A DNA stretch of 64,000 nt, from assembly GCA_949373235.1 (NCBI GenBank), contig CASICQ010000003.1:49136-113135 (forward strand), read 5' to 3'. The DNA is from Candidatus Poseidoniaceae archaeon. GTDB lineage: Archaea; Thermoplasmatota; Poseidoniia; Poseidoniales; Poseidoniaceae. Both the position numbers and the translations under genes were made by a program. Of this stretch, positions 10,631 to 63,804 are shown piece after piece. Numbering within the stretch: the first letter of the stretch is position 1; the number at the start of each line of letters is the position of its first letter. The notes under the pieces are model-generated. The model made no database searches, was not told the origin of the DNA, and saw only the letters and a program-made list of their open reading frames with translations.

Positions 10631-10699
10631 TTGTTTCCTCGACATTGAATATCTTCAACGTCAAGGCTGACGTCAATGAGTCGGGATTCAGCACATTCT

Positions 10700-10830: not shown

Positions 10831-10855
10831 GTCGCTCACTGTATCCTGTTAAGAT

Positions 10856-11227: not shown

Positions 11228-11316
11228 TTTGGTATTAAGGCACAGGTTACAACATTGTTACAAAAGAACACTTCTGCCACTTTTTGGTTTATGTACGGAA
11301 GTACTTAGCCGGGGTC

Positions 11317-12420: not shown

Positions 12421-12485
12421 GCATGGTCTGAACGAATTGCGATACCCCTCTGTATACCCTTGCGACAAGCGTCTCACGCGTCGGT

Positions 12486-12562
12486 ACCTAAGGGTTCTTC
12501 CAAACTCCTCAAGACATTATGGAGAAGGACGCTGGGGTTTAATTTCCGAGTACACTGAAGGT
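12486..12562 (-). repeat. Intergenic repeat element copy C (diverged, reverse orientation)
   Basis: CCTCAAGACATTATGGAGAAGGACGCTGGGGTTTAATTTCCGAGTACACTG. The reverse complement shares the conserved CAGTGTACT ... CTCCATAATGTCTTGAGG(A/G)GTTTG(G/T)AAGAACCCT blocks. It lies between two plus-strand genes. Confidence 0.7.
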
Positions 12563-12620
12563 GAAGAACTTACAGAAGTGTTAGCGAGGTAAAATATACT
12601 TCATCGCATTGTTAAATTAC

Positions 12621-14624: not shown

Positions 14625-14629
14625 CGACA

Positions 14630-14725
14630 TATCATTTCCATGAAATCGCGAGGGTTCTTACAAACCCCTCAAGACATTATGGAGGAGTACAATGGGTGTT
14701 CAGTCCCCCAGTACACTGCCTAGCG
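14630..14725 (-). repeat. Intergenic repeat element copy D (reverse orientation; best match to copy A)
   Basis: The reverse complement is CGCTAGGCAGTGTACTGGGGGACTGAACACCCATTGTACTCCTCCATAATGTCTTGAGGGGTTTGTAAGAACCCTCGCGATTTCATGGAAATGAT. It sits between convergent genes ending at 14624 and 14745. Confidence 0.8.
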
Positions 14726-14744
14726 TCTGTATCGGCCCACTGAG

Positions 14745-51679: not shown

Positions 51680-52126
51680 GTGTCAGAGGTCGCATTGGAA
51701 GTTGAAACAAACCCCCTCAAATCCCTCTGGAAGGTCATTGCGGGCTCCACATTGATCGCCTCGATGTGTTGCCTACCCTCTGTGGTTTTGGTGATGCTAG
51801 GGCTTGCAACCGTCTCGACTGGAGCCGCTCTTTCCGACACCCTCTACTGGGGCGGCGATGGATACGGTTGGTTTCGTCCGCTGATGGGCGTTGTGGCCGC
51901 AATCAGCGTTGTTATTGGATTGACCGTGTACTTCAGAAACCAGGGCATATGCACCCTCGACCAAGCAAAACAATCCCGTCGAAAAATAATCAACACCTCG
52001 TTGCTGGTGTTGACCGTCACCTACCTGACATACTTGTTGTTTAACTACGTCATCCTCACTGAGATTGGCATCCAATTCGGATTGCCTTGGGAATCAAGCC
52101 GTGATTCCTACATGTTTTGGCGATGA
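51680..52126 (+). CDS. Small membrane protein (4 TM), hypothetical
   Basis: Evidence is hydrophobicity pattern only. It is convergent with the PPTase gene. Confidence 0.35.
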   Translation: MSEVALEVETNPLKSLWKVIAGSTLIASMCCLPSVVLVMLGLATVSTGAALSDTLYWGGDGYGWFRPLMGVVAAISVVIGLTVYFRNQGICTLDQAKQSRRKIINTSLLVLTVTYLTYLLFNYVILTEIGIQFGLPWESSRDSYMFWR

Positions 52127-52882
52127 TCAGGCATTGCCCCGGGTGGTCTTGCAACCAACGCCCCATTCGCTTTCAGTCATTGCTTTCCTTGTCGCTTCGA
52201 GCAGCGCATCCTCCGGGGTTGGAACAGCGCGGATCCCCGCTGTAAAGGCGATGGCCATACTGGCCTCCTTGTGAGCCCACTTTACCAATTGAATTTTTGA
52301 TTTTTCAATTGATAAGTATGACCGTTCTACTCCAATTGGAATTTCAATTTTCCTCGGGTTCAGGTGCATGCCTAGGCCAAGGGATTTTTGGATTGCTTCT
52401 TTGGAAACCCACGCTTCGATGGCGCAAGAAGGGTGAGCGAGTAAAAACTCCAGTTCTGCTCCTTTGGCCATCATGGAAAAGGCGTTTGGTTGGATGCCTC
52501 GGTCGCTCGGCTCTCCGTCCAAACCAACGCACCATTCAGGCTCGGCAATGGCCACATAAGCCCACCCGCCGCTGTGACAGAGGCTGATCGAAGGCAGCGG
52601 CGTGTTCTTCCAAACGCCTGCGATGTAGGCGAGGTAAGGAGCTCGATGTTTCGTACGTTCAACGCTCACCAGCGTGGCATCAATGCCCCACAGGGCGAGG
52701 GCTTCTTGCAACAACCAGCGGCCTGTGAGGTGCTCATCGCATCGCTTCTGAACGACAAACGTAGCCACTTCATCAGCATCAGCCAAAACCACATGTTCAG
52801 GTTCATGCGTTTGGACTGGACTGCGTAAAACCAAGCAGGTTGGCAAATCATCCCCGGGTGGTTGGAGATGTTCAATTGTCAT
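52127..52882 (-). CDS. 4'-phosphopantetheinyl transferase, Sfp/PfaE type
   Basis: SISLCHSGGWAYVAI (SxSHS-like), CVGLDGEP (Mg-binding GxDxE-like) and WVSKEAIQKSLG (WxxKEAxxK) are present. It lies 12 nt downstream of the megasynthase. Confidence 0.7.
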   Translation of the reverse strand: MTIEHLQPPGDDLPTCLVLRSPVQTHEPEHVVLADADEVATFVVQKRCDEHLTGRWLLQEALALWGIDATLVSVERTKHRAPYLAYIAGVWKNTPLPSISLCHSGGWAYVAIAEPEWCVGLDGEPSDRGIQPNAFSMMAKGAELEFLLAHPSCAIEAWVSKEAIQKSLGLGMHLNPRKIEIPIGVERSYLSIEKSKIQLVKWAHKEASMAIAFTAGIRAVPTPEDALLEATRKAMTESEWGVGCKTTRGNA

Positions 52883-52894
52883 TTTTAGGCCTCA

Positions 52895-54712
52895 TCAACG
52901 CTCAAGCGTGAAGGCTTCTTCATCCGAAACCGGAGCCATGCCCTTGAGGCGTAGACCCTTGAGCGCCAAAACAGGTGCGTCATCTTCTCCGACAATCACC
53001 ACATCATGCACCGTAACACCGGCCTCTTCAACCGAAGTTCGGAGGCTCCGCATACGAAGCAGTTCATCTCGTTCTGGCACCCGAAGCATGGAAGACCATT
53101 CGATGCCTACGGGGAGGGACGAGAAACCTTCGCTCTCCATAGCCACCAATCCCGCATTTTGGAACCCTGCCTCGATGAGCATGGGAAGCGCTTCAAGCAA
53201 GACTGTTTCACCTTCTGATTCATGCGCAAACTGGTCGGTTGCAGGCAATTGATGCCGCATCAAAGCAATGCCGTCTGCCCCTGGCATCGATTCGTCACCG
53301 ACGCCACGCAGAACACCTCCATGCGACTGGAATCGAGGCCCGTGGAAGTACCTGTCATAGATGAAGGAAGGTTGTTCCGCAAGTTCACCAGGCGCGGGAA
53401 TTCCAAGATTCGGGAGCGCTTCCACTTCCGCTTGCAAGAACGGCCAAAGGTCGTCGCCTTTTTCCACGAGGCGTACTGAAGCCTTGTGGTGCTCTCGTTC
53501 ACCAAACACCTCGCCTTTAGAATTCGTAAGATCTGACACGAGGGTGCATTTCACCCATGTGAGGTCGTTTTCCGTCCGATCAAACTCAGCGGTGACTCGC
53601 ACGGTCATCGGTCCTTTGAGCAACTTCACAGGCAAACCGAATTCGACGGATTCAAATCCAGCTAAACAGGTCGAAGGACGCATCAACAACGCCACTTCAG
53701 CGAACATTTCCAACGCCATAACCCCGGGGTGGTACGGAACGCCCTCAATCGCGTGGTCGATCAGGAAGGGGTGGTCCTCTTCCGACAAGGTTGATTGTAC
53801 AGTCAGTGATTGATCTTCTCGGCAGGCAAGCACTTTGTCGATGAAAGGAAAACGTTGTGGGTCGGCAATGATGCTTGCCATTTCAGCAGGTAGACGGAGG
53901 GGGGCTTCTCTAAAGGCATCGAAATGATCCATCTCTCCTAGGGATCCACATCCAATGACGCGACGCTTGCCTCCTGCAAGGGCTTCATCCACAAAGATGT
54001 TCACGCCTTCATCCACTGAAAGGGTGTCAATTCCTGCGGCTTCAAAGACCGCTTCAATTGAGCCTCTTGTCGCCATACCAACGTCCCGCCACCCAGTCCA
54101 ACCAATGGCTACAGCACGGCAGGTTCCAGAAGCGGTGAGCCGTGCCATTTCAGCATCGAGAACACTGTTTGCTGCTGCATAGTCTGTTTGCCCTCCGTTG
54201 CCGAACCGTCCGGCAACGCTGGTGAAGCATGCTGCGAAACGAGGGCTTTCGGCTCCTGAGGCCAAGCATGCGGCAAGCATGCACTGCCAACCATCCACCT
54301 TGACTCGAACCACCTTGTCGAACACATCGTAGTCCTTGTCCGCAACAAGTTTCGAATCCTCTAAACCAGCACCGTGAATCAAGCCCGTAATCGGACGATT
54401 GAGGCTTTCTCCGACCGCTTGCATTGCTTCACGGTCCATGACGTCGACGGGGTGGTATGAGGCAGAGTTGCCCGTGGACTCAATTGAGTTGAGGGTATCA
54501 TACACATCTCGACTGCGAGTGAACTTTTGCCAAGCCTTGTTCCACTCAACCATGGTGACCTTGCCTGATTCGCTTGCCGCAGCAAGACGTTCGCGCAAAG
54601 CCATCCGTTCAACCTCAAGTTCTGGTTCGCCCCAAGTGATCCATGTTTTGGTTTGTTCAATGAGGTGAGAGCGACCAAGAAGGGCGAAATGAGCTCCTGC
54701 ATTGAATGACAT
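52895..54712 (-). CDS. C-terminal fragment of the type I FAS/PKS megasynthase: catalytic ketoreductase subdomain plus PKS-type dehydratase
   Basis: The KR subdomain (about 53918..54712) shows the HGAG...KVDGW...YAAANSVLD catalytic Tyr/Asn region. The DH domain (about 52913..53860) carries the HxxxGxxxxP motif LIDHAIEGVPYHPGV. The reading frame is contiguous with the upstream 2364-aa ORF if one base is removed at the C5 run 54721..54725. Confidence 0.8.
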   Translation of the reverse strand: MSFNAGAHFALLGRSHLIEQTKTWITWGEPELEVERMALRERLAAASESGKVTMVEWNKAWQKFTRSRDVYDTLNSIESTGNSASYHPVDVMDREAMQAVGESLNRPITGLIHGAGLEDSKLVADKDYDVFDKVVRVKVDGWQCMLAACLASGAESPRFAACFTSVAGRFGNGGQTDYAAANSVLDAEMARLTASGTCRAVAIGWTGWRDVGMATRGSIEAVFEAAGIDTLSVDEGVNIFVDEALAGGKRRVIGCGSLGEMDHFDAFREAPLRLPAEMASIIADPQRFPFIDKVLACREDQSLTVQSTLSEEDHPFLIDHAIEGVPYHPGVMALEMFAEVALLMRPSTCLAGFESVEFGLPVKLLKGPMTVRVTAEFDRTENDLTWVKCTLVSDLTNSKGEVFGEREHHKASVRLVEKGDDLWPFLQAEVEALPNLGIPAPGELAEQPSFIYDRYFHGPRFQSHGGVLRGVGDESMPGADGIALMRHQLPATDQFAHESEGETVLLEALPMLIEAGFQNAGLVAMESEGFSSLPVGIEWSSMLRVPERDELLRMRSLRTSVEEAGVTVHDVVIVGEDDAPVLALKGLRLKGMAPVSDEEAFTLER

Positions 54713-57700
54713 TTCTGCTACCCCCGATCACCGATGCAGCCGTGACGCCAGATCCGCCGCCTGAAACCAACCAAGTGTCGTCGGATTGCAAGGGCGTACG
54801 TTCTTCAACCAAATCTTCAGCAAATGCCACAAGCGCCCACCGGCGTTCGTCTCGGTCAAGGCCAATTTCAACCTCGCCCGCAATGTTGAACACGTCATGA
54901 TGAATCAAAGCGGCTGCTTGTGCAGGATCTAGAATGAGTTCAGGATGAACATCAAGGGCACGGCAGCGGAGGTGCGGTTGTTCAAATGCATAGGATTTCG
55001 TCACACCGGAGGCAGCGCATTGAACCGCATTGAACCGCTCACCAATGTTTCCATGTCGTCCATCTAAGGCGGTAATAGAGGCTACAATTCCAGCATCGAG
55101 GTTTGAAAGCTGTGCGTCGAGGCCTTGCAGCAAGGAAAAGTATCCTTGTGCGGCCAGAGCAATCTGAGATGAAGGATGCCCATCTTCCGCCCACGAAGCG
55201 CTGGCCAACTTGAGCGGCGACATGTGAATCAAGGCAGAGATGTTGTGTCCGTTCAAGGCTTGACTCACCGCAGCGATGTGTTCGGGGTTACCGGGATCTG
55301 CACGGTAGACGACTCTCTTGCCTTCTTGCTGGACAGACATGTCCCGAATGTTGCTCTCGAAACCGATGCGAATCGCATCCATGCCGTCCGCTTCAAGGAG
55401 TTGACAGAATACCTCTGCGATGCCCCAACCGTCGTCTGTAACAACGGCTGTTCCCTTCAAAGACATGGGGGCATCTCGACCCGGTGCTGCTTCAACTTCA
55501 ATTTGCCAGCGTCGTGATTCAACGGTTGTGGTCGTTGAAACCAAAGAGGGAGCGGTTGATGCCTCCGTTTGGCTTGGAGGGGCGGGTGAACCAGTGGATG
55601 CATCGCCCTTCATGCGGAGGATGTAGGCAGTAAAATGGTTCAGCGTAGGATGATCAGACAAGACGAAGTCTTCGTCCAATGGAAGGTCGAACACCTCTCG
55701 TACATCACCCATAATTTCGGCTTGCTTCACGGTGTCTATGCCCAATTCTCCCTCGAGGTCTTGATCCATTTCAATGAAATCAGCTGGGTAACCCGTGTGC
55801 TTAACGACAATCTCAACCAATTGGTCATCAACTGTGCCGTCTGTTGCCACACCTTTCGGTTTTGAGGTTGTTGGCTCACTTGGGGCAGGTGCTACCGGGG
55901 CAGGTGCTACCGGTGCTGGTGGAGAGGGCGCCGGTGCTGCCTTGGCTGGGCTCGATGGTGCTTCGCCTCCTTGCATGCGATGGATGTAGGCAATCATGTG
56001 ATTCAAGGTTGGATAATCGGATAGAACAAAATCTTCATCAAGCGGTAAACCAAATCGATCGCGTATGTCCGCCATAATTTCGGCTTGCTTCACCGTGTCA
56101 ATCCCCAATTCACCTTCGAGGTCCTGGTCGAGTTCAATGAAATCAGCCGGATAACCGGTGTGAGTCACGACAACTTCGACCACAGTGGCCCGCAAATGCT
56201 CTTCATCAACCGGGGAGGCTGGAGGGTGTGGGGCTGGGGAAGCAAGAGGTTGCGATTCAGCGACTGGCTGTGGTGCTTCCTCAGAAGGCAGTTGGGTCGG
56301 TGCAGCAGGTGCTGGAACGGGAGCAGTGGTTCCACCGCTCATTCGTTGAATGTAGCCAATCATGTGATTCAAGGTCGGATAATCAGAGAGCACAAATTCT
56401 TCATCCACAGGGAGGTTGAACCGTTCACGAATATCAGCCATGATCTCGGCCTGCTTGACCGTATCAATGCCCAACTCACCCTCTAGGTCCTGATCCAATT
56501 CAACAAAATCAGCTGGGTAGCCCGTGTGATTGACAACCACATCGATGACTACGGTGACGGCATCGCCTTCAGCGACAGCCGACGGGCTGAGTGATTGTAC
56601 TGAAGCCGGTGCTGGTGTTGGAGCAGGGAGGCTCGGCTGAGGAGCGGGGACTGAAACTGGTGGAGGAACGGGGGTTGGGACTGGGTTTGGCACAACCGAG
56701 GGTTTGCCTTCAAAAGGCGCTGTGATGGGCCAAGGATCCCCTTGAACGCCGCCATGAAGGTTGTTCTCACCGTCCACATAAGCAACCAACTTCTGATCCA
56801 GCAAACGCATGACTACGTCTTCATTGCCCGCTAAGCGACGGTTCCATGCCAGGAATTTCGCCCCGTCAATCCGTTCACCAACAACGGGCCAGCGGCGAAC
56901 AAGTGAAAGCGCCATTTGAGACCCAAATCCAGCAGCGAACCGAAGGCCGTACTTGAGGTTTGGATAATCGCCACCTTTTGAGAGGTTGAGGTTACCCAAC
57001 TCAGGGTCGACTTCCTTGTGGTTTGCAATCGGAGGTATCCTTCCAGTTTTCATGCCGTGGAACATGCTGGCGTCTTCAATTCCAACTGCCATTGGATGAC
57101 CAGTGAAGCCTTTTGTGTTCGCAATGACAAGTTTGTCCGTGCTGTGTGTGAAGGTGTCTCGCAACGCCCGAACTTCGGATTGCGCCGACCCACCCCGAGC
57201 AGGGGTGTAGGTCTCATGGGAGAAAAACACGGTGTCAGAAGCGATTTCATGGCGGTCGATGCCCCATTGTTGTTCCATGGAGGTGACGAAGTTGTCCACC
57301 GTTTCAGCAACGTGATCAACATCAAGGCGAGTGCCGTGGAAGGCGGAATTGGCGGTGGTCGCACCGAGCAATTCTGCAATTGGTTGAACACCACGCTCTT
57401 CCGCTTCTGAATTGCGTTCAACAACGAAGGCTGCTGCGCCCATGCCGAGGATCAATCCATTGCGCCTCCGGTCGAATGGCAATGCTGTTTCTTCGACCAC
57501 GTTGTGGGTTGCAGCAGCTCCTGATGCGGCGAAGCCCCCACCAATCCATTCCCACATGTCATCGCCCGTTACGTCATCCGCCGAGATGATAACAACACGA
57601 TCGACGCGATCGGCGTTGAGCCAATCTTCCGCAACGCCAAACGCTGCTGTGGCCGATGCACACGCTAGATTGATGATTGTGTTTGGACCTCGAATACCAG

Positions 57701-60700
57701 AGTATTGAGCGAATTGTGAATGGCCCATTGCTAGAGTTTGGAACAGGTACCGTCGATCAAAGCGCCCCTCACCGTCGTCGCCGTTTGCTTTCGCATGTTT
57801 CAGGGCCATTTGGAAGCCAGGGAAACACGAAGCGAAGACGATTCCTGTTCGATCCCGGGTGTGCTGAGGGACTTGCCAGTTTCGAATCAAGCGCAATCCG
57901 CCCTTGCCGATTTGTTCAACGGGAGTCAATGGAATCGCTGCATCTCTTAGGGCAAGGAGCCCAGCGGCCATGCCGAGTTGTGTCGTTATGTCCCAAGCCA
58001 GTATGACCTTTGGATCAATGCCAAATTCTTCTGCAAGATCAAAAGCACCTTTCACGCCTGCGAGTTGGGGCACGTCGCCAAACGCTGTGGCTTGGTCCAT
58101 GTTCACTGAACCATCTCGCCCTTTGATCAAGCGAACCAGATTCTTGTCCAGTAAGCGTTGCTTGTAATCATCGGTGACTTCTGAGATGCAAGTTTCACCG
58201 CGAACAAGGCGCTCAAAAGTATCTTCATTGAACACACTCTCCCCGCCAGGAAGTCCAAGCGACACGCCCGTTACGACAAACGGATCTGCACGGCGCCGGC
58301 TCATTGGGTCATGGCCTGTTGCAGGGGCATGACCTGCAGAAGAAGGAGCGGCCATTCGAGTCATTGAGGACTTCGGTGACCAACCAGCAGGAGGTGTTGC
58401 AATCCAACGGGCTACGTCCGCAACCGTTTTGGCGCCGCTAACGTCCACTTCCGGGTCGGTTTTCGCCTCGGAAACCACAGTTTGGAACAGAGAGGCAATG
58501 CTTGCTTCCGACATGCCAAGGCCAAGGCGTAAATCGACCATTCCGTGGCAGAAACGAGCGGGATAATTCGTAAGGGAAGCAATCCGGTCTCCAAGGTAAG
58601 CATCCTTGGCTTTTTGAGCGGCAATCTCCGGATCGAGGTTCGGGGAGCTCGAGGCTTGCTGAACATGCACCACTTGAGGTGTTCCAGTTCCAGCAGCAGA
58701 AGGCAACGGGCGGGCTCGCGTGCGCAAATCTTCACCCGATGAGGTGGCTCGATGTGCTTCAATTGGCCCGGCACGGAACGCTTCGGTCAGTGCGGCTGAT
58801 GTTGGCGCCGGCCAATTCATCGGACGTCCTGCGAGCGCCATCGTAGCGAGGGCGGTCAAAAAGGATGCGATTCCACCTTGTTTGGGGTGGTTTGTCATGA
58901 CTGGCAAGTGAGGCTGATCTTCAAGAATCTGAACCGCAAACATGCTCAGAGCGCGCTTGGGCCCGACTTCGATGAACGCTCGTGCTCCGGCTTCATACAT
59001 GGTTTGAATTTGAGCGGTCCATTCAACTGAGGAAGCCATTTGCAAGGCTAACTTGCTGAGAACTGCGGATTTCGAAGCCTCCAAATCCTCGCTGTCTGAA
59101 GGGTTCATTGGGTAGAATTCCCCGTCGACATTGGCCGTGATTGGGATGGTGGGCCAACGAATATCAAGCCCTTCTAAGAACCTGCGAAGAGGTTCGTTGG
59201 CTGGTGCGACAATCCTCGAATGGAAAGCGTGGGAGGTGGCCAATGGCATCGATTGGAATCCTTTGGCTTCAAACTCAGCCATTGCGGCCTTCACCGGTTC
59301 TGTTTCACCAGCGATGACGGTCATCTTTGGAGAATTTTTATTCGCTGCGATGACGTAACCGTCGACAGCGTTGATGATTGTTTCAACCTCTGAATATGGC
59401 GCACTAACGCTTGCCATGAGCCCTTTATCGTCAATTTCTACAGCGCCCATTTCAGTTCCGCGAGCAGCTGCTGCACGAAGTGCTCCGTCCATATCCAAAA
59501 TCCCTGCAGCCATCAAGGCAGCGTATTCGCCGAGCGAATGGCCAGCGACCATATCGGGGTGAATGCCGTGATCGTTGAGCGCTCGCTCGATGGCCAGGTC
59601 AGCGGTCAACATGGCAGGCTGAGTGTATTCTGTCTGCTTTAGTTTGTGTTCAGCCTCTGCCTGTTCTTCTTTCGAGAGGTTTGACCGAAGTACGAAACTT
59701 GACAGGGTTTCACCTTCAAGCACCTCGATCATGGTCTCATCGGCCTTGGCCCAAACCTGCTGAACCGCAGTGTAGCGTTGATGCAGATCATGGGTCATAC
59801 CGACGTATTGACTGCCTTGTCCAGGGTACATGTGCGCAACCTTGGCTTTAGCATGAAGCGGAGCGTCTTTGGTGATCAAAACGCCTTGGGCTTGTAGGAA
59901 GCCCCACTTGTCTTCATCGTCCATGGCCTTGAGAGCCAATTCAACTCGCTTGTTGAACTCGGCCCAATTGGTGGCAATAACGGCCATCCGCATTGAAGCG
60001 CTTGAATCAAAGGAACTTGATGCAGCATAGAGAGCATAAGACAGACGGATTCCTTTCGGGTCTTCATCGAAGGTGGCTCCTTCGAAGGAAGTTGTCGTGA
60101 GGGCCTGCCTTAGGCCTTCGAGGGATTCGGCAGAGAGCAGAAGCATGCCACCTTCAACCGCTTTGAGTTGTTCGTGAGTCATGCTTGGTGCCGCAGAACC
60201 ATCGAGAATGGACGGGGCGGAAGGGGTTGTTGAAGAAGAGGTTTCAATCGCAGCATAGGCTTGCCATCGAAGATCCCATTCGCGCGCCAACGGAGCGTGA
60301 TATTCTGGCTCATAGCCCTCAAGAGCGATGTGGAAGTTCGTACCGCCGAAGCCAAAGGCGGAAATGCCTGCCCGTCGCGGGTGGTGTTCAGGTCGAGGCC
60401 AATCGCGGGCTTCGGTTGGAACAAAGAAGGGAATCTCACTCCATTCAACGGTCGGGTTTGGCGTTTCAAACCCTGCGGATGGGGGAATGGTGCGGTGGTG
60501 AAGCGCCATAACGGTCTTCATGATTCCTGCAATACCAGCAGCGGCTTTGAGATGGCCAATCTGAGATTTTATCGAGCCGACAGCAACATGGTCTCCACTT
60601 GGGAACCCGTCCCAAAGCAAAGATAACGTCGACAATTCGGTCGCATCTCCCACCTTTGTCGAGGTGCCGTGGGCTTCCACGAGTTCCACTGTGCTTGCAG

Positions 60701-61751
60701 GATACCCCGCTTGATTGTACGCTCGGGCGATGGCCTGAACTTGGCCCCGCTGGCTTGGTGCAGTGATGCCCTTGCCGCGCCCATCGGAGGAACCACCTAT
60801 GCCACGGATGACTGCGTGAACCTCATCGCCATCTGCCAAAGCATCGCTCAGGCGTTTCAACAGCAACACACCAGCCCCCTCACCCATCACAAAGCCGTTT
60901 GCTCGGGCATCAAATGGGGTTGAATGAGTCGGTGATAAAGCGCCAATGGCACTGAACTTCGAAAATGTGGCCGGATCCATCGTACGGTCTGTAGCCCCTG
61001 CGAGCATGAGGTCCACCTGACGGGTTTGCAGCAATCGGCAAGCATCCAAAACAGCCGCCATGGAAGACGCACAGGCGGCGTCCATTGCGTGGTTGGGGCC
61101 TTGTAAATCGAGTAGGTTTGCGACTCGGCCTGAAACCACATTGGCCAATTCCCCAGGCATTGTGTCTTCATCGATTCGTGGCGTACCCTCAACCAACTCT
61201 TCGGTGAACGCTTCGATGTTCTGTTCTGCAAGCCCATGCTTCTTAGCCAGCTCTTTGGTGTGGTTGGACCACACGCGAATGTTGGAAAGGTTGCGGTTCT
61301 CACCGCCGAGCGCATTTGCGAAAACAACGCCACATCGAGTGCGATCGATGTCTTTTGTTTCGCCATCATAGCCGGCTTGCTCGATGGCATCTGCTGCTAC
61401 AGAAACCGCCCAAAGTTGGCATGGATCAATTTGCGGGAGGGTGCCTGGTGGCTGCCTCCATCGACGCCAGTCGAATTCGAACCCTTCGACAAGAGCTCCG
61501 ATTTTGGCGTAGGTGAACCCTTCTTTGCTGTCGCCAGGCCCACCTTCTCGATAGAAATGGTTGATTGGACCCGGCCATCGGCCTTCCTGTATCTCTCGAA
61601 TACTGACTTTGGAATCGATGATGTTCTGCCAGAAGGCTTCGATGCTTGGCGCGTCAGGCATCAGGGCTGCCAAACCGATGACTGCAATCGGTTCGAACGG
61701 TCCTTGATCAAGCCCTTCGCAGGGTTTGCCATTTGCTGTTGTGATCGTCAT
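54657..61751 (-). CDS. Type I FAS/PKS megasynthase, PfaA-like: KS - malonyl-AT - second KS - 3 tandem ACP-like domains - KR structural subdomain and start of the KR Rossmann fold
   Basis: KS1 (about 60327..61694) has GPNHAMDAACASS, EAHGTSTKVGD and KSQIGHLKAAAG. AT (about 58947..59834) has GQGSQY, GHSLGE and the malonyl-type SHAFHS. KS2 (about 56892..58289) has NLACASATAAF, FHGTRLD and GFTGHPMAVG. Three repeats of HTGYPADF(V/I)E(L/M)DQDLEGELGIDTVKQAEIM are PfaA-style ACPs with Thr at the Ser position. The ORF ends within the KR GGGSG loop because of a frameshift. Confidence 0.85.
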   Translation of the reverse strand: MTITTANGKPCEGLDQGPFEPIAVIGLAALMPDAPSIEAFWQNIIDSKVSIREIQEGRWPGPINHFYREGGPGDSKEGFTYAKIGALVEGFEFDWRRWRQPPGTLPQIDPCQLWAVSVAADAIEQAGYDGETKDIDRTRCGVVFANALGGENRNLSNIRVWSNHTKELAKKHGLAEQNIEAFTEELVEGTPRIDEDTMPGELANVVSGRVANLLDLQGPNHAMDAACASSMAAVLDACRLLQTRQVDLMLAGATDRTMDPATFSKFSAIGALSPTHSTPFDARANGFVMGEGAGVLLLKRLSDALADGDEVHAVIRGIGGSSDGRGKGITAPSQRGQVQAIARAYNQAGYPASTVELVEAHGTSTKVGDATELSTLSLLWDGFPSGDHVAVGSIKSQIGHLKAAAGIAGIMKTVMALHHRTIPPSAGFETPNPTVEWSEIPFFVPTEARDWPRPEHHPRRAGISAFGFGGTNFHIALEGYEPEYHAPLAREWDLRWQAYAAIETSSSTTPSAPSILDGSAAPSMTHEQLKAVEGGMLLLSAESLEGLRQALTTTSFEGATFDEDPKGIRLSYALYAASSSFDSSASMRMAVIATNWAEFNKRVELALKAMDDEDKWGFLQAQGVLITKDAPLHAKAKVAHMYPGQGSQYVGMTHDLHQRYTAVQQVWAKADETMIEVLEGETLSSFVLRSNLSKEEQAEAEHKLKQTEYTQPAMLTADLAIERALNDHGIHPDMVAGHSLGEYAALMAAGILDMDGALRAAAARGTEMGAVEIDDKGLMASVSAPYSEVETIINAVDGYVIAANKNSPKMTVIAGETEPVKAAMAEFEAKGFQSMPLATSHAFHSRIVAPANEPLRRFLEGLDIRWPTIPITANVDGEFYPMNPSDSEDLEASKSAVLSKLALQMASSVEWTAQIQTMYEAGARAFIEVGPKRALSMFAVQILEDQPHLPVMTNHPKQGGIASFLTALATMALAGRPMNWPAPTSAALTEAFRAGPIEAHRATSSGEDLRTRARPLPSAAGTGTPQVVHVQQASSSPNLDPEIAAQKAKDAYLGDRIASLTNYPARFCHGMVDLRLGLGMSEASIASLFQTVVSEAKTDPEVDVSGAKTVADVARWIATPPAGWSPKSSMTRMAAPSSAGHAPATGHDPMSRRRADPFVVTGVSLGLPGGESVFNEDTFERLVRGETCISEVTDDYKQRLLDKNLVRLIKGRDGSVNMDQATAFGDVPQLAGVKGAFDLAEEFGIDPKVILAWDITTQLGMAAGLLALRDAAIPLTPVEQIGKGGLRLIRNWQVPQHTRDRTGIVFASCFPGFQMALKHAKANGDDGEGRFDRRYLFQTLAMGHSQFAQYSGIRGPNTIINLACASATAAFGVAEDWLNADRVDRVVIISADDVTGDDMWEWIGGGFAASGAAATHNVVEETALPFDRRRNGLILGMGAAAFVVERNSEAEERGVQPIAELLGATTANSAFHGTRLDVDHVAETVDNFVTSMEQQWGIDRHEIASDTVFFSHETYTPARGGSAQSEVRALRDTFTHSTDKLVIANTKGFTGHPMAVGIEDASMFHGMKTGRIPPIANHKEVDPELGNLNLSKGGDYPNLKYGLRFAAGFGSQMALSLVRRWPVVGERIDGAKFLAWNRRLAGNEDVVMRLLDQKLVAYVDGENNLHGGVQGDPWPITAPFEGKPSVVPNPVPTPVPPPVSVPAPQPSLPAPTPAPASVQSLSPSAVAEGDAVTVVIDVVVNHTGYPADFVELDQDLEGELGIDTVKQAEIMADIRERFNLPVDEEFVLSDYPTLNHMIGYIQRMSGGTTAPVPAPAAPTQLPSEEAPQPVAESQPLASPAPHPPASPVDEEHLRATVVEVVVTHTGYPADFIELDQDLEGELGIDTVKQAEIMADIRDRFGLPLDEDFVLSDYPTLNHMIAYIHRMQGGEAPSSPAKAAPAPSPPAPVAPAPVAPAPSEPTTSKPKGVATDGTVDDQLVEIVVKHTGYPADFIEMDQDLEGELGIDTVKQAEIMGDVREVFDLPLDEDFVLSDHPTLNHFTAYILRMKGDASTGSPAPPSQTEASTAPSLVSTTTTVESRRWQIEVEAAPGRDAPMSLKGTAVVTDDGWGIAEVFCQLLEADGMDAIRIGFESNIRDMSVQQEGKRVVYRADPGNPEHIAAVSQALNGHNISALIHMSPLKLASASWAEDGHPSSQIALAAQGYFSLLQGLDAQLSNLDAGIVASITALDGRHGNIGERFNAVQCAASGVTKSYAFEQPHLRCRALDVHPELILDPAQAAALIHHDVFNIAGEVEIGLDRDERRWALVAFAEDLVEERTPLQSDDTWLVSGGGSGVTAASVIGGSRNVIQCRSSFRPSWSLSPH
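55608..56579 (-). repeat. Three tandem coding repeats (363-366 nt period) encoding ACP-like carrier domains joined by Pro/Ala-rich linkers
   Basis: The repeat units are about 70-aa identical-motif blocks separated by PAP-rich linkers. The copies are diverged at synonymous sites. The 'Ser-position' codons are CGT/CGT/GGT on the plus strand, which read ACG/ACG/ACC (Thr) on the coding strand, at 56460..56462, 56094..56096 and 55731..55733. Confidence 0.85.
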
Positions 61752-61760
61752 GCGCTCACT

Positions 61761-62555
61761 TCACTGATCCATGATGCTCTGAGGCACCATGGTGATCGAA
61801 TAACCGCCATCGACGTATATGCACTGGCCTGTAACGCCGCTTGCGAGAGGGCTTGCAAGCCAAAGCGTTGCTCCCGCTACATCGTTTTGATTGACGTTAC
61901 GGCGCAATGGTGCATTGGCTTCGACGTGGTCAAGGATTTTGTCAAAACCCGGAATGCCACCTGCGGCAATGGTGCGTATGGGGCCGGAAGAGATGGCGTT
62001 GACGCGATGACCTTCCGGACCGAGGTGGCACGCAAGTTCCCTCGTCCAGCATTCCAATGCAGCCTTAGCCATCGACATGATGCCATAATTAGGAACATAT
62101 CGGGTCGAAGCGGCGTAGGTTAGCGTGATGGTGGACGAACCAGGGTTGAGGTAAGGCAGCGCATGCTTCAAGCAACGTTGCAGCGAATTTGCTGAAATGG
62201 TCATGGCCGTGTTGATATCAGCATCTTCGACGAAGAGAATGGGGCGATCAAAGCAACTTCGAGGCGCAAAGCCGATCGCATGAATGAGAATATCAGCCTT
62301 GAGCCCTGGATGTTCTGCTGCAAAGGCGTCGAAAAATTCCTTTGTTGTTGCGTCCTCTGCCACATCAAGCGGGTAGAATCCGCCAATTTGTGGTAATTTG
62401 TCTTTGAGTTGGAAAATTCGGCTCATGAATCGCTTCTGATACCCGAGGTAAAGCGTCACACCAGCGGCCGCCAACTGTTGACAAATCGCCCAAGCGATGG
62501 AATCCTCGCTCGCCACACCAAACACGAAGGCGGTCTTTCCTTGCAATTGTAGCAT
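61761..62555 (-). CDS. fabI: Enoyl-[acyl-carrier-protein] reductase, FabI-like (SDR family)
   Basis: LQGKTAFVFGVASEDSIAWAICQQLAAAGVTL parallels the FabI N-terminus [21 protein letters not shown]. The FabI-type Tyr/Lys catalytic spacing (YxxMxxxK region AASTRYVPNYGIMSMAKAALE) is present. It lies 9 nt upstream of the megasynthase. Confidence 0.8.
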   Translation of the reverse strand: MLQLQGKTAFVFGVASEDSIAWAICQQLAAAGVTLYLGYQKRFMSRIFQLKDKLPQIGGFYPLDVAEDATTKEFFDAFAAEHPGLKADILIHAIGFAPRSCFDRPILFVEDADINTAMTISANSLQRCLKHALPYLNPGSSTITLTYAASTRYVPNYGIMSMAKAALECWTRELACHLGPEGHRVNAISSGPIRTIAAGGIPGFDKILDHVEANAPLRRNVNQNDVAGATLWLASPLASGVTGQCIYVDGGYSITMVPQSIMDQ

Positions 62556-62670
62556 AACAGTACCTCCTCAATGGATAGGTGTTGGCCAGCACACCTAACC
62601 TATGACTGTTGCCTATGTCACGACCTATGAAACCGCATATCTGCGACCCATTTTGTTTCGCCGAAGAGGC
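62556..62670 (-). promoter_or_regulatory. Leader/promoter region of the fabI-megasynthase-PPTase operon with three direct CATAGG repeats, a 7-bp-arm palindrome and a strong SD-like GAGGAGGT
   Basis: The transcribed-strand sequence is ...TTTCATAGGTCGTGACATAGGCAACAGTCATAGGTTAGGTGTGCTGGCCAACACCTATCCATTGAGGAGGTACTGTTATG. CATAGG occurs three times at 12-13 nt spacing. TAGGTGT...ACACCTA is an inverted repeat around the palindromic TGGCCA. GAGGAGGT sits 8 nt before ATG. Confidence 0.4.
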
Positions 62671-63804
62671 TTACAAATCATCGAACATATCGTCGAATTC
62701 GTCGGCCTTTGAAGGACCGTCGAGGTCTGAAAAGAAATCGTCTAAATCGTCATCCAAAGCTGGCGATTCAACTGAAGCGGGATATTCGGGAAGATCGATG
62801 GCGACAGGCACCTGAATCGCTGAAGCGGCTGCAGTGCCCCGAGAGGAGCGCTTGGTGGCTTTTGCTAAAACCACGACCAAAAGCAGAACGAGGATGACCC
62901 CTCCTGCGATTGCAGCGTATTGAAGCACCTGATCCTTGTCTATTTCCTCAAGGTTACCGCCAAGCGAACTTGATTGACCGGGAGCAACGACGTTGAGTTG
63001 AACTGTAATTTCGCTCGACGCTGCGCTGCTGTCAACGCTGCTTTCGGCTTGGAAAAGCACAGGGAGGCGGATGTCTTCAGCGAGATCCGAAGGTGAGCGT
63101 ACCGTCAAGGTTCGGAGGCTCGAAGTGCCTTGGTAGGCCACTTCTTCGCTCACAAATGTGCCTGCTGGGAACGAGAAGCCTGCGGCAACCAAGTCCGCTT
63201 CATTGGCGATACGAATCACAATGTTATCGTCATCGTTGCCTTTGTTGGTGAATTGGAAGGTGAAATCGACTTCTTCTGATGTAGAGAGTTCACGGGTGGT
63301 TTTGTCGGACATGATCAATTCAACCATTCCATAGGAAGCAATTGAGAAATCACCAAGATAGGATTGGTTGACCACCCATGGGCCATCCGGAAGTTCCCCG
63401 TATGGAAGGCCGTTCCAAGAGGTCACTTTGGCTTCGATTTCAAATTCATGAGTGAGGGAAGCTGGGAGTCTTGTTTGGCCCGAGAACACGATGTTGAAAC
63501 TCTCTTCATCGCCGGCAGCAAGAGTAAATTCATCTTCACTGAGCGTCATTTCTACGTTGACGCCATCCCATTCGATTTTATCGACCTTGACGACTTCACT
63601 TGCCGAGGTTGGGTTGGTGACCGTGCAGACAAGGACAGCATCCTCGTAGAAGTTTGGATGAACGTTCATCACCGGGTCTGAGCCACAGTCCAACTCGACC
63701 GCAGGAAGCGGTGAGCCTTGTGCTGCGGCGCCAGTTGAGAGCGCAGGCAAGACGAATAAGGTCAACACGAGCAACGCGGTGAATGCCCTACCAAATCGTG
63801 CCAT
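62671..63804 (-). CDS. Secreted surface protein with C-terminal TM anchor and poly-acidic cytoplasmic tail, hypothetical
   Basis: A signal peptide FTALLVLTLFVLPALSTGAAAQG is present. The C-terminal helix AIAGGVILVLLLVVVLA is followed by KATKRSSRG and a DDDLDDFFSDLD...DEFDDMFDDL tail. Confidence 0.55.
   Translation of the reverse strand: MARFGRAFTALLVLTLFVLPALSTGAAAQGSPLPAVELDCGSDPVMNVHPNFYEDAVLVCTVTNPTSASEVVKVDKIEWDGVNVEMTLSEDEFTLAAGDEESFNIVFSGQTRLPASLTHEFEIEAKVTSWNGLPYGELPDGPWVVNQSYLGDFSIASYGMVELIMSDKTTRELSTSEEVDFTFQFTNKGNDDDNIVIRIANEADLVAAGFSFPAGTFVSEEVAYQGTSSLRTLTVRSPSDLAEDIRLPVLFQAESSVDSSAASSEITVQLNVVAPGQSSSLGGNLEEIDKDQVLQYAAIAGGVILVLLLVVVLAKATKRSSRGTAAASAIQVPVAIDLPEYPASVESPALDDDLDDFFSDLDGPSKADEFDDMFDDL

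What the first reader, a model, noticed from the sequence alone, without database searches (positions are those of the whole stretch)
52127..62670. Self-contained type I fatty-acid/polyketide megasynthase operon (FabI - KS-AT-KS-ACP3-KR-DH - PPTase) in an archaeal genome
The neighbouring genes mark this as an archaeal chromosome: thermosome, CDC48, PyrI, a TrmB-family regulator and NcsA. Archaea build isoprenoid ether lipids and as a rule lack acyl carrier protein (ACP), type I FAS/PKS and Sfp-type phosphopantetheinyl transferases (PPTases).

Here a single minus-strand operon encodes every activity needed for an iterative fatty-acyl or polyketide elongation cycle:
- condensation (two KS domains);
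- malonyl transfer (AT with the HAFH motif);
- carrier (three tandem PfaA-style ACP domains);
- ketoreduction (KR);
- dehydration (PKS-type DH with HxxxGxxxxP);
- enoyl reduction (a trans-acting FabI-like SDR);
- a dedicated PPTase.

The tandem TGYP...LGID-type carriers and the KR-DH tail resemble PUFA-synthase PfaA. There is no PfaB, no PfaC (chain-length factor plus FabA-type DH) and no PfaD-type enoyl reductase. The product is therefore unlikely to be a canonical PUFA. The system could make saturated or hydroxy fatty acids, a long-chain polyketide, or lipid modifications.

This is the strongest candidate for an undescribed system in the window.
Basis: partly seen in the sequence, partly recalled or inferred. 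Interest (0 to 1): 0.9.

Follow-up and report, generated by a model that had tools for sequence, protein, structure and literature searches.

The report
Archaeal PfaA-like fatty-acyl synthase operon
Marine Group II archaea, the commonest archaea of the surface ocean, carry a conserved bacterial-type operon for building fatty-acyl chains on a giant multi-domain enzyme, and its carrier domains have a threonine where every characterised carrier protein has the cofactor-bearing serine.

Summary
On the minus strand, 52127-62555 encodes FabI, a KS-AT-KS-ACP3-KR-DH megasynthase and an Sfp-type PPTase, separated by 9 and 12 bp. In this window a 1-nt insertion (C5 run, 54721-54725) splits the megasynthase. 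Six 99.5-99.9% identical contigs carry it intact (2951 aa).

It is not a misassembly. The host is a Marine Group II archaeon (Poseidoniaceae). The operon and its flanks are syntenic in about 80 species-level genomes. All catalytic residues are invariant, and the tetranucleotide signature matches the rest of the window.

It is not an unknown kind. Its architecture matches the bacterial "Type R secondary lipid synthase" of Shulse & Allen 2011 (pfaA homologue KS-MAT-"CLF"-ACPn-KR plus PPTase; product unknown). MGII "bacterial-like fatty acid genes" are already in the literature. The archaeal version has FabI where bacterial relatives have a conserved acyl-CoA-dehydrogenase-like gene.

All carrier domains (252/252 in MGII loci, and the bacterial relatives) have Thr, encoded by all four ACN codons, at the first residue of helix II, where the phosphopantetheine-bearing Ser should be.

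The most likely function is an iterative synthase making saturated fatty-acyl chains. The product and the release step are unknown.

The parts
61761..62555 (-). FabI-like enoyl reductase (264 aa), first gene of the operon; RBS GAGGAGG lies upstream of its ATG
   Evidence: Pfam adh_short_C2 E 4e-70. PDB FabI of T. thermophilus E 2.5e-56, with Y-x6-K (YGIMSMAK) present. 82-100% identical across MGIIa loci and always 9-15 bp upstream of the synthase. NCBIfam FabI equivalog models score below cutoff, 223 vs 391 bits.
52895..61751 (-). PfaA-like megasynthase gene, KS1-AT-KS2-ACP3-KR-DH. Intact it encodes 2951 aa. Here it is split into ORFs 54657-61751 and 52895-54712.
   Evidence: It is a single 2951-aa gene in six 99.5-99.9% identical contigs. 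It is a single ORF of more than 2700 aa in 65 loci.
54721..54725 (.). C5 homopolymer (G5 on the coding strand) carrying a 1-nt insertion that shifts the frame inside the KR Rossmann motif (GGGSGVTAASVIG|VAEMSFNAGAHFALLGRS)
   Evidence: Alignment with L001, L002, L005 and L006, which all have G4. Coordinates checked.
60282..61694 (-). KS1, a PKS/PfaA-type ketosynthase with C227, H361, H400
   Evidence: Pfam ketoacyl-synt, Ketoacyl-synt_C and KAsynt_C_assoc. Triad invariant in 63 sequences.
58827..59846 (-). Acyltransferase with GHSLG (S739) and the malonyl-type HAFH motif
   Evidence: Pfam Acyl_transf_1 E 9e-36. Both motifs invariant.
56802..58286 (-). KS2, a FabF-like second ketosynthase with an intact triad: C1364 (ACAS), H1512 (HETYTP), K1547/H1552. 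It is the domain earlier called 'CLF' in Type R clusters.
   Evidence: PDB FabF hits at 1e-20. Residues invariant. The HETYTP motif is shared with the bacterial relatives P0507 and Nonomuraea.
55596..56561 (-). Three tandem PUFA-type carrier domains (56325-56561, 55959-56195, 55596-55832) joined by Pro/Ala-rich linkers. The motif DQDLEGELGIDTVKQAEIM has Thr (T1764, T1886, T2007; codons 56460-56462, 56094-56096, 55731-55733) at the Ser position.
   Evidence: Pfam PP-binding, 3 stretches, E 1.5e-25. PDB ACP alignments put T opposite the pantetheinylated S. The AF2 model is a four-helix ACP fold with T34 as the first residue of helix II. 252/252 carriers are Thr in 86 loci. All four ACN codons are used.
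53891..55595 (-). KR region: an N-terminal structural half (54777-55595) and a catalytic half (53891-54776) with GGGSGVT, K2484 and YAAAN (Y2524)
   Evidence: Pfam KR E 5e-24. Motifs invariant.
52898..53890 (-). PKS-type dehydratase: H2666 in HxxxGxxxxP, GPxF, and ExxxQ in place of DxxxQ
   Evidence: Pfam PKS_DH_N E 2e-8 and PS-DH. Motifs conserved.
52127..52882 (-). Sfp/EntD-type 4'-phosphopantetheinyl transferase (251 aa) with a conserved C-terminal extension of about 40 aa
   Evidence: Weak Pfam 4PPT_N/ACPS hits. 292 relatives, many carrying PF01648. Invariant G120-x-D122-x-E124, H103 and W158..K161-E162..K166. AF2 pLDDT 88; Foldseek hits to 2cg5, 4mrt, 1qr0 and PptT at E 1e-10 to 1e-6.

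Best explanation
This is the Marine Group II (Poseidoniaceae) copy of a PfaA-like, 'Type R' iterative type I fatty-acyl synthase operon. It was probably acquired once from bacteria by an ancestor of these archaea and has been inherited vertically since.

Proposed mechanism:
1. The PPTase converts the three tandem carrier domains to their holo form. Inferred: on the conserved Thr at the start of helix II.
2. The HAFH-type AT loads malonyl units from malonyl-CoA.
3. KS1 (PfaA-type) and KS2 (FabF-like, catalytically intact, probably paired with KS1 as a KS/'CLF'-like dimer) carry out decarboxylative condensations. They may divide the work by chain length or by priming versus elongation.
4. KR reduces the 3-keto group and the PKS-type DH makes the trans-2-enoyl intermediate.
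5. The separately encoded FabI reduces it. With no FabA-type isomerising DH, the product is predicted to be a saturated (or largely saturated) fatty-acyl chain.
6. Release uses an enzyme outside the operon, or the AT acting in reverse. The acyl chain is then available for ester-linked or other acyl lipids.

Shown: gene order, domain identity, intact catalytic residues, strong purifying selection, conservation across the lineage, and relatedness to the bacterial family. Inferred: holo-modification on Thr, the roles of the two KS domains, FabI acting on the carrier-bound enoyl intermediate, product saturation and chain length, and the product's fate. In this particular window the synthase gene carries a frameshift, most likely an assembly error or a rare variant.
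For: - Domains and motifs.
- Operon compaction (9- and 12-bp gaps).
- PPTase fold and motifs.
- Host and distribution: 244 GTDB species genomes have a relative, and the 80 listed are almost all Poseidoniales/Poseidoniaceae, including the CM001443.1 MG-II genome.
- Synteny anchor-T/FabI/synthase/PPTase/orf148/M28 is conserved in all loci that extend far enough.
- A 48%-identical relative (P0376, L090) has the same TatD-FabI-synthase-PPTase-M28 order.
- The gene is an intact single ORF in 65 loci, with mean identity 0.76-0.84 in the catalytic domains against about 0.5 in the linkers.
- Native composition: tetranucleotide r = 0.94 against the rest of the window (other segments 0.90-0.975), GC 0.53-0.55.
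- Bacterial relatives with the same domain order plus a PPTase and/or ACC: L087, L088, Nonomuraea L091. These match the Type R description.
- In an NJ tree of KS2 the archaeal sequences are monophyletic.
- FabI is the most conserved gene of the operon: 75% identity even in L090, where the synthase N-terminal 1200 residues (KS1-AT) are 48% and the PPTase 33% identical.
- Literature context: MGII lack G1P dehydrogenase, have G3P dehydrogenase and PlsC-like genes, and their lipids are unknown.
Against: - No product, transcript or protein evidence exists.
- No thioesterase, acyltransferase or ACC lies in the operon or the window.
- The family was classed as a 'secondary lipid' synthase with unknown product, so a specialised lipid is as compatible with the data as a bulk fatty acid.
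- The carriers lack the canonical Ser. From my own knowledge, Ser-to-Thr ACP mutants are not modified by E. coli AcpS, so holo-formation on Thr is unproven.
- The synthase scores below the PfaA cutoff and FabI below the FabI equivalog cutoffs.
- The bacterial relatives pair the synthase with an ACAD-like gene rather than FabI, so chemistry may differ between lineages.
- The NJ tree places the archaeal clade as sister to, not nested within, the sampled bacteria. The direction of transfer therefore rests on parsimony only.
- In this window the gene is frameshifted.
Confidence: 0.6

Rival explanations
1. It is a specialised 'secondary lipid' or polyketide synthase, not the cell's fatty-acid supply. 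It would make a dedicated long-chain product (hydroxy or partly unsaturated acyl chain, glycolipid aglycone, alkyl-resorcinol or hydrocarbon precursor) that accessory enzymes elsewhere in the genome then take up.
For: The family is classed among the uncharacterised secondary lipid synthases. antiSMASH surveys label Poseidoniaceae clusters T1PKS/HglE-KS/resorcinol (that paper is retracted). Tandem PUFA-type carriers and two KS domains are typical of product-specialised Pfa-like systems. No release enzyme sits in the operon.
Against: A tightly coupled and extremely conserved FabI argues for full reduction in each cycle. No FabA-type DH, methyltransferase, type III PKS or glycosyltransferase is syntenic with the operon in MGIIa. 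Conservation across all sampled MGIIa species fits a core function better than an accessory one.
Confidence: 0.22
2. The Thr carriers are not phosphopantetheinylated. The synthase would then work on CoA thioesters or by another tethering chemistry, and the 'carrier' domains would be structural or regulatory. Alternatively the system has lost its original function.
For: Thr replaces the universally conserved Ser in 252/252 MGII carriers and in the bacterial relatives. No other conserved Ser lies in or near the carriers.
Against: A PPTase with an intact catalytic site is strictly co-conserved next to the synthase, and the bacterial family is defined partly by a downstream PPTase. The carrier motif around the Thr is invariant, and the Thr sits at the N-terminus of helix II exactly as the modified Ser does. 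The Thr codons drift synonymously (ACG/ACC/ACA/ACT), while Ser, one mutation away, never appears. This indicates selection for a hydroxyl residue of this particular kind. All catalytic domains are under purifying selection.
Confidence: 0.12
3. It is an artefact: a bacterial fragment joined to an archaeal contig by misassembly or mis-binning. A weaker form is that the operon is a decaying pseudogene in this organism.
For: The synthase reading frame is broken in this window. Three GTDB genomes holding a relative are labelled bacterial: Verrucomicrobiales, Salinimicrobium and Rhodobiaceae.
Against: The same junctions with archaeal flanks (M28 peptidase, Hsp70, anchor-T protein, TatD) recur in 23 contigs with the identical FabI and in about 80 species-level genomes, including contigs of 0.5-2 Mb. 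The tetranucleotide signature and GC are native. The three 'bacterial' contigs show MGII synteny, so they are the mis-binned ones. The frameshift is a single homopolymer base that is absent from six 99.5-99.9% identical contigs.
Confidence: 0.03

Closest known systems
Type R secondary lipid synthase gene cluster (Shulse & Allen 2011, PLoS One 6:e20146; Koribacter versatilis, Solibacter usitatus, Elusimicrobium minutum, Roseiflexus spp.)
   Same: There is one pfaA homologue with KS-MAT-second KS ('CLF')-tandem ACPs-KR, followed by a PPTase gene. Homologues from Acidobacteria, Chloroflexota and Actinomycetota share the KS2 HETYTP motif and the Thr carriers. Some bacterial members have an ACC gene next to the synthase, as described for Koribacter.
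   Different: The host is an archaeon. A FabI gene precedes the synthase instead of the conserved 490-604-aa ACAD-like gene of the bacterial loci. The PPTase shows no detectable sequence similarity to the PPTase of a bacterial locus. The second KS keeps Cys-His-His, so 'CLF' is a misnomer here. The C-terminal PKS-type DH was not listed in the 2011 description. The product is unknown in both.
PUFA synthase subunit PfaA (TIGR02813; Shewanella, Photobacterium, Schizochytrium subunit A)
   Same: It is the best NCBIfam match. Shared features are the KS-MAT...tandem ACP-KR-DH backbone, the TGYP...LGID-type carriers with Pro/Ala linkers, and a dedicated Sfp-type PPTase.
   Different: The score is below the family cutoff, 877 vs 1010 bits. 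An extra FabF-like KS lies between AT and the ACPs. No PfaB, PfaC (KS-CLF-FabA DHs) or PfaD lies nearby. The reductase is FabI rather than PfaD-type. Carriers have Thr instead of Ser (LGIDTVKQAE vs LGIDSIKRVE; the latter motif is from my own knowledge). The predicted product is saturated, not polyunsaturated.
Bacterial type II FAS components FabI and FabF
   Same: FabI aligns end to end with solved FabI enzymes and keeps Y-x6-K. KS2 aligns best with FabF structures and keeps the triad.
   Different: Both score below NCBIfam equivalog cutoffs. KS2 is a domain inside a megasynthase and has HETYTP instead of the usual HGTGT-type motif. No free ACP, FabD, FabG, FabZ or FabH gene lies in the operon.
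Heterocyst glycolipid synthase HglE and Azotobacter ArsA/ArsD type I FAS for phenolic lipids (other Pfa-like 'secondary lipid' systems; from my own knowledge)
   Same: All are iterative Pfa-like type I synthases with tandem carriers that make long saturated or hydroxylated chains rather than PUFAs. antiSMASH labels such clusters hglE-KS.
   Different: Those systems have partner genes (HglC/D/G; ArsB/C type III PKS) that are not seen near the MGII operon. I made no direct sequence comparison here.

Membership tests
Type R secondary lipid synthase (Shulse & Allen 2011) | Single pfaA homologue with domain order KS-MAT-CLF(second KS)-ACP(3-6)-KR | tested here: met
   Pfam and motif mapping give KS1-AT-KS2-ACP3-KR(-DH).
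Type R secondary lipid synthase (Shulse & Allen 2011) | PPTase gene downstream of the pfaA homologue | tested here: met
   The PPTase starts 12 bp after the synthase stop codon and is conserved in all loci that reach that far.
Type R secondary lipid synthase (Shulse & Allen 2011) | KS domain clusters phylogenetically with the reference Type R sequences (Koribacter, Solibacter, Roseiflexus, Elusimicrobium) | tested here: inconclusive
   The reference sequences could not be fetched. Homologues named Acidobacteria, Chloroflexales, Caldilineaceae and Anaerolineae share 44-51% identity in KS2 and form the sister clade.
PUFA synthase PfaA (TIGR02813) | Score at or above the curated NCBIfam cutoff | tested here: not met
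   877.3 bits against a cutoff of 1010.1.
PUFA synthase PfaA (TIGR02813) | Partner genes pfaB, pfaC (KS-CLF-FabA-type DH) and pfaD in the cluster | tested here: not met
   None is present within 10 kb either side in the MGII loci or in the 64-kb window. The rest of the genome was not examined.
Acyl carrier protein / PP-binding domain | Four-helix carrier fold and a Pfam PP-binding match | tested here: met
   Three stretches, E 1.5e-25. The AF2 model has helices at 2-13, 34-48, 54-57 and 64-74.
Acyl carrier protein / PP-binding domain | Conserved Ser at the N-terminus of helix II as the phosphopantetheine attachment site | tested here: not met
   Thr occupies this position in all three domains here, in 252/252 domains of the MGII loci and in the bacterial relatives.
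Acyl carrier protein / PP-binding domain | Actual 4'-phosphopantetheinylation | not testable with these tools
   This needs mass spectrometry of the expressed carrier with and without the PPTase.
Sfp-type (group II) 4'-phosphopantetheinyl transferase | Two-lobed pseudo-dimeric PPTase fold | tested here: met
   AF2 pLDDT 88.1. Foldseek hits to 2cg5, 4mrt, 1qr0 and PptT structures at E 4e-10 to 1e-6 over 220-250 columns.
Sfp-type (group II) 4'-phosphopantetheinyl transferase | Mg/CoA-binding and catalytic motifs (GxDxE; WxxKE[AS]xxK) | tested here: met
   G120, D122, E124, W158, K161, E162 and K166 are invariant in 28 sequences.
Sfp-type (group II) 4'-phosphopantetheinyl transferase | Pfam ACPS/4PPT_N score above gathering | tested here: not met
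   22.0-22.3 bits against 25-27 for the window protein. Many relatives carry a precomputed PF01648 hit. A profile search found no PDB sequence hit.
FabI enoyl-ACP reductase | SDR fold with the Y-x6-K catalytic motif and end-to-end similarity to FabI | tested here: met
   adh_short_C2 E 4e-70. PDB FabI E 2.5e-56 over residues 3-255. YGIMSMAK motif present.
FabI enoyl-ACP reductase | NCBIfam equivalog cutoff | tested here: not met
   Best score is 223.5 bits against a cutoff of 391. It is a divergent FabI-family member.
Integrated type I FAS (animal, fungal or corynebacterial) | ER and a release domain (TE or MPT) inside the megasynthase | tested here: not met
   The 2951-aa protein has no ER or TE domain. 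ER is supplied in trans.

The most novel reading that the evidence does not exclude
An entire, widely distributed family of Pfa-like synthases (bacterial Type R plus the Marine Group II archaeal clade) uses carrier domains whose prosthetic group is attached to a threonine. This would be O-phosphopantetheinyl-threonine, installed by the co-encoded PPTases, and would be a chemistry not described for any carrier protein. In MGII archaea this enzyme would be the source of fatty-acyl chains for non-isoprenoid or mixed membrane lipids. The 'lipid divide' question in the most abundant surface-ocean archaea would then become directly testable with one 10-kb operon.
Probability: 0.3. Interest if true: 0.85.

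Novelty: new variant of a known kind. Interest (0 to 1): 0.62.

Why it matters
Marine Group II archaea dominate archaeal communities in the surface ocean and are uncultured. The lipids they make are unknown. They lack G1P dehydrogenase, and no intact polar GDGTs were found where they dominate.

The literature mentions 'bacterial-like fatty acid genes' in MGII only in general terms. This analysis pins that capacity to one compact, strictly conserved, selection-maintained operon. It identifies the operon as the archaeal branch of an uncharacterised bacterial family (Type R). It also gives a cloneable unit of about 10 kb for heterologous expression.

The Thr-for-Ser carriers matter in two ways. 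If they are modified, the known chemistry of phosphopantetheinylation would widen, and this would explain why these clusters always bring their own PPTase. If they are not modified, the enzyme works in an unexpected way. Either outcome is informative for carrier-protein enzymology and for annotation pipelines that assume a Ser.

Tried and rejected
- Literature: ten full-text searches found no paper that dissects this MGII megasynthase and none on Thr-type carriers. Villanueva 2017, Iverson 2012, Dibrova 2014 and the Beld PPTase review are not held. What Villanueva et al. actually described therefore remains second-hand.
- The exhaustive representative search was swamped by giant modular PKSs, whose many KS-AT modules add up in score. 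Only P0361, P0376 and P0507 were colinear relatives.
- The listing of cluster members gave no organism names for the bacterial carrier fragments.
- The Nostocoides australiense hit is only a KS2 gene fragment with no cluster around it.
- A profile search of the PPTase against PDB sequences found nothing. The fold search was needed instead.
- I considered a fourth, degenerate carrier between AT and KS2 (TNYP...GLGMSEASI). The segment is poorly conserved (mean identity 0.49, no conserved Ser in the motif), so I treat it as a linker.
- The ACP and linker boundaries were mis-set.
- Programmed frameshifting at the G-run is rejected because near-identical strains have G4 and a continuous frame.
- Whether MGIIb (Thalassarchaeaceae) or MGIII carry the operon could not be settled. 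Only the best 80 of 244 GTDB hits are listed, and L090 (48% relative) has no taxonomic label.

Full report
**1. What is in the sequence**

Four co-directional minus-strand ORFs fill 52127-62555:
- 61761-62555 (264 aa)
- 54657-61751 (2364 aa)
- 52895-54712 (605 aa)
- 52127-52882 (251 aa)

Nine bp separate the first gene from the synthase and 12 bp separate the synthase from the last gene. An RBS (GAGGAGG) precedes the first ATG.

Pfam assignments:
- The 264-aa protein is an adh_short_C2/enoyl-ACP-reductase SDR (E 4e-70).
- The 2364-aa protein carries ketoacyl-synt N and C domains, Acyl_transf_1, a second ketoacyl-synt stretch and three PP-binding domains.
- The 605-aa protein carries KR, PKS_DH_N and PS-DH.
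- The 251-aa protein gives only sub-threshold PPTase hits.

The two large ORFs overlap by 56 nt. Read across a G-run on the coding strand, they give a normal KR Rossmann motif (GGGSGVTAASVIG|VAEMSFNAGAHFALLGRS). Six contigs from independent metagenome assemblies are 99.5-99.9% identical over the whole 10.7 kb. They have G4 where the window has G5 (C5 at 54721-54725 on the + strand) and carry one 2951-aa gene. The split is therefore a single-base homopolymer insertion. It is an assembly error or a rare variant, not the native state.

**2. Is it real and archaeal?**

The rest of the window encodes thermosome, CDC48, PyrB/PyrI, TrmB, NcsA/TtuA-like, HMG-CoA synthase, Hsp70 and ThrRS.

A scan of one genome per GTDB species found relatives of the synthase in 244 genomes. 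The 80 listed are almost all named Candidatus Poseidoniales, Poseidoniaceae, Poseidonia or MGIIa. They include the original MG-II chromosome CM001443.1.

In every locus that extends far enough, the gene order is conserved: anchor-T protein, FabI, synthase, PPTase, a small convergent membrane protein, M28 peptidase.

Three contigs filed under bacterial MAGs (Verrucomicrobiales, Salinimicrobium, Rhodobiaceae) show the same archaeal synteny, so those contigs are mis-binned.

The operon's tetranucleotide signature correlates 0.94 with the rest of the window, against 0.90-0.975 for other 10.4-kb segments. Its GC content is unremarkable. The misassembly explanation is rejected.

**3. Anatomy of the synthase**

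Numbering follows the intact 2951-aa protein.

| Domain | Residues | Key residues |
|---|---|---|
| KS1 | 20-490 | C227, H361, H400 |
| AT | 636-975 | GHSLG (S739); malonyl-type HAFH |
| Linker | 976-1155 | poorly conserved |
| KS2 | 1156-1650 | C1364 (ACAS), H1512 (HETYTP), K1547/H1552 |
| Three carriers | Thr at 1764, 1886, 2007 | joined by Pro/Ala-rich linkers |
| KR | 2053-2620 | structural half plus catalytic half; GGGSGVT, K2484, YAAAN |
| DH (PKS-type) | 2621-2951 | H2666 in HxxxGxxxxP, GPxF, ExxxQ |

KS2 is most similar to FabF structures (E 1e-20).

Every residue in the table is invariant or nearly so in 63 distinct full-length MGII sequences. These sequences are otherwise only 64-94% identical to the query. 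Catalytic domains average 0.76-0.84 identity and linkers about 0.5. This is the pattern of purifying selection on a working enzyme.

The best NCBIfam model is PfaA (TIGR02813), but the score is below its cutoff (877 vs 1010 bits).

**4. The two small genes**

*FabI-like protein.* It aligns end to end with solved FabI enzymes (Thermus FabI, E 2.5e-56) and keeps Y-x6-K. It scores below the NCBIfam FabI equivalog cutoffs. It is the most conserved gene of the operon: 82-100% within MGIIa, and 75% in a lineage where the synthase N-terminal 1200 residues (KS1-AT) are 48% identical.

*The 251-aa protein.* It has 292 relatives, mostly from Poseidoniales, and many of them carry Pfam ACPS. An alignment of 28 sequences shows invariant GxDxE, H103 and WxxKE..K. 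An AlphaFold model (pLDDT 88) matches human AASDHPPT, Sfp and mycobacterial PptT by Foldseek (E 4e-10 to 1e-6). It is an Sfp-type PPTase, but a divergent one. A profile search found no PDB sequence hit. It shows no detectable similarity to the PPTase of a bacterial relative.

**5. The carriers have Thr, not Ser**

All three carriers read DQDLEGELGIDTVKQAEIM.

- Alignments to solved ACPs and to PigH place the Thr opposite the phosphopantetheinylated Ser.
- An AlphaFold model of the domain is a four-helix ACP fold, and the Thr is the first residue of helix II, exactly where the Ser sits.
- In 86 loci all 252 carriers have Thr, and the 19-residue motif is essentially invariant.
- The Thr codon drifts among all four synonymous codons: ACG 105, ACC 52, ACA 43, ACT 38. 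Ser is one mutation away (TCN) and never occurs.
- No other conserved Ser lies in or near the carriers.

The same holds for the bacterial relatives:
- Fragments from Myxococcota, Lujinxingia and Anaerolineales carry the Thr motif.
- 22 KS2-search hits that extend into a carrier domain all carry Thr.
- The cultured actinomycete Nonomuraea gerenzanensis has DLGVDTVKQAE.
- P0507 also carries the Thr motif.

A few PUFA-like tandem carriers with Ser were also retrieved, for example a Thermoguttaceae protein with GIDSIKKAQ. Thr is therefore a trait of this family, not of all Pfa-type carriers.

I found no mention of this feature in the held literature. From my own knowledge, characterised carrier proteins are all modified on Ser. 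The strictly co-conserved PPTase argues that the Thr is modified, but this is inference.

**6. Relatives and family**

Bacterial loci show the same domain order.
- L087: ACAD-like gene, KS-AT, KS2, four Thr carriers, KR-DH, ACPS-type PPTase. The ORFs are fragmented by long-read errors.
- L088: ETF and ferredoxin genes, ACAD, the synthase, then a biotin carboxylase.
- Nonomuraea (L091): ACAD, a 2555-aa KS-AT-KS2-ACP-KR-DH protein, then a single-chain ACC.

The three ACAD-like proteins are 57-66% identical to each other, so they are a conserved partner in bacteria.

Shulse & Allen (2011) described this architecture as the 'Type R' secondary lipid synthase: KS-MAT-CLF-ACP(3-6)-KR plus a downstream PPTase. 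They found it in Koribacter (with an ACC gene between the two), Solibacter, Elusimicrobium and Roseiflexus, with unknown product. Their paper mentions neither archaea nor threonine.

The names attached to my KS2 homologues fit this family: Acidobacteria, Chloroflexales, Caldilineaceae, Anaerolineae and Actinomycetota. I could not fetch the reference Type R genes themselves.

In an NJ tree of KS2 rooted with KS1, MGIIa plus P0376 form one clade, sister to the sampled bacterial clade. P0376 is a 48%-identical relative on a 3.0-Mb contig with the same TatD-FabI-synthase-PPTase-M28 order and four Thr carriers. This fits one ancient acquisition followed by vertical descent. The direction (bacteria to archaea) rests on parsimony and on the general absence of ACP machinery in archaea (PMC3533463).

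**7. How it most likely works**

Shown:
- All activities of a malonyl-dependent elongation cycle are encoded.
- The catalytic residues are intact.
- The genes are transcriptionally compact.
- The genes are co-conserved.

Inferred:
1. The PPTase primes the carriers on Thr.
2. AT loads malonyl units.
3. KS1 and KS2 condense. KS2 occupies the place of a chain-length factor but is catalytically competent. The two probably pair and divide the work by chain length or by priming versus elongation, as the two KSs of PUFA synthases do (the latter from my own knowledge).
4. KR and DH give the trans-2-enoyl intermediate.
5. FabI reduces it in trans.

With no FabA-type isomerising dehydratase, the expected product is a saturated acyl chain.

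Release is unexplained. No thioesterase or acyltransferase lies in the operon or the 64-kb window. A 4HBT-type thioesterase gene lies about 10 kb upstream in the near-identical contigs, outside the window. I did not follow this up.

The literature adds context. MGII lack G1P dehydrogenase, encode G3P dehydrogenase and PlsC-like genes, and make unknown lipids. This makes a role in acyl-lipid synthesis attractive but unproven. A specialised secondary lipid is the main rival.

**8. Known or new?**

The kind of system is known (Pfa-like, Type R). The existence of 'bacterial-like fatty acid genes' in MGII is also known in general terms. One antiSMASH survey, since retracted, listed T1PKS/HglE-KS clusters in Poseidoniaceae.

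As far as the held literature shows, the following are not described:
- the assignment of the MGII genes to this family;
- the FabI-for-ACAD exchange;
- the catalytically intact second KS;
- the family-wide Thr carriers.

I therefore rate it a new variant of a known kind. It is interesting mainly because of its host and the carrier chemistry, not because it is an unknown class of system.

Noticed in passing
window 55596-56561 (codons 56460-56462, 56094-56096, 55731-55733); also L007-L091: Every carrier domain has Thr at the phosphopantetheine-attachment position (LGIDTVKQAE). All four Thr codons are used and Ser never occurs. The trait is shared with bacterial relatives, including cultured Nonomuraea gerenzanensis. 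I found no description of it in the held literature.
   Followed up: yes
window 54721-54725: A one-base homopolymer insertion (C5 vs C4 on the + strand) splits the megasynthase gene in this assembly only. Six 99.5-99.9% identical contigs are intact.
   Followed up: yes
L018 (NZEQ01000014.1), L039 (CAXRAI010000082.1), L086 (CALDQY010000187.1): Contigs filed in GTDB species genomes labelled Verrucomicrobiales, Salinimicrobium and Rhodobiaceae carry the MGII operon with MGII flanking genes. They look like mis-binned archaeal contigs in bacterial MAGs.
   Followed up: partly
L087 3047-4681, L088 3417-4889 (with ETF/Fer4/CCG genes upstream), L091 7067-8881: The bacterial relatives have a conserved 490-604-aa acyl-CoA-dehydrogenase-like gene (57-66% mutual identity) directly upstream of the synthase, where MGII has FabI. 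In L088 it sits with electron-transfer flavoprotein and ferredoxin-like genes. It may be an alternative enoyl reductase or a desaturase.
   Followed up: partly
window 51680-52126 (+): A small convergent membrane protein (148 aa, MCC motif, weak MerT-like hit) abuts the PPTase stop codon. It keeps this position in nearly all MGIIa loci. Its function is unknown.
   Followed up: partly
window 62671-63804 (-): A 'choice-of-anchor T' family protein (NCBIfam NF041740, above cutoff) lies immediately upstream of FabI in all MGIIa loci, separated by 115 bp. It is probably a surface protein unrelated to the synthase.
   Followed up: partly
window 58287-58826 (aa 976-1155 of the synthase): The linker between AT and KS2 contains a carrier-like relic (TNYP...DLRLGLGMSEASI) that aligns with the real carriers. 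It is poorly conserved and lacks a conserved hydroxyl residue at the attachment position.
   Followed up: yes
window 10000-15000: A low-GC stretch (0.45-0.47 against 0.52 elsewhere) holds a zinc-type alcohol dehydrogenase gene (11284-12420) and a 671-aa ORF with no Pfam match (12609-14624). It may be a genomic island.
   Followed up: no
window 14745-15779 (-) and 44162-45733 (-): The same window holds isoprenoid-pathway genes: a squalene/phytoene synthase and an unusually long (523 aa) HMG-CoA synthase homologue.
   Followed up: no
window 7214-10630, 24682-27852, 32895-35447, 31110-32888: Several large ORFs (1138, 1056, 850 and 592 aa) have no Pfam match at E 1e-3 or 1e-4.
   Followed up: no
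L001-L006 position 1-82 (about 10 kb upstream of FabI, outside the window): A 4HBT-type hot-dog thioesterase gene lies about 10 kb from the operon in the near-identical contigs. 4HBT thioesterases accompany some pfa clusters (from my own knowledge), so it is a candidate release enzyme.
   Followed up: no
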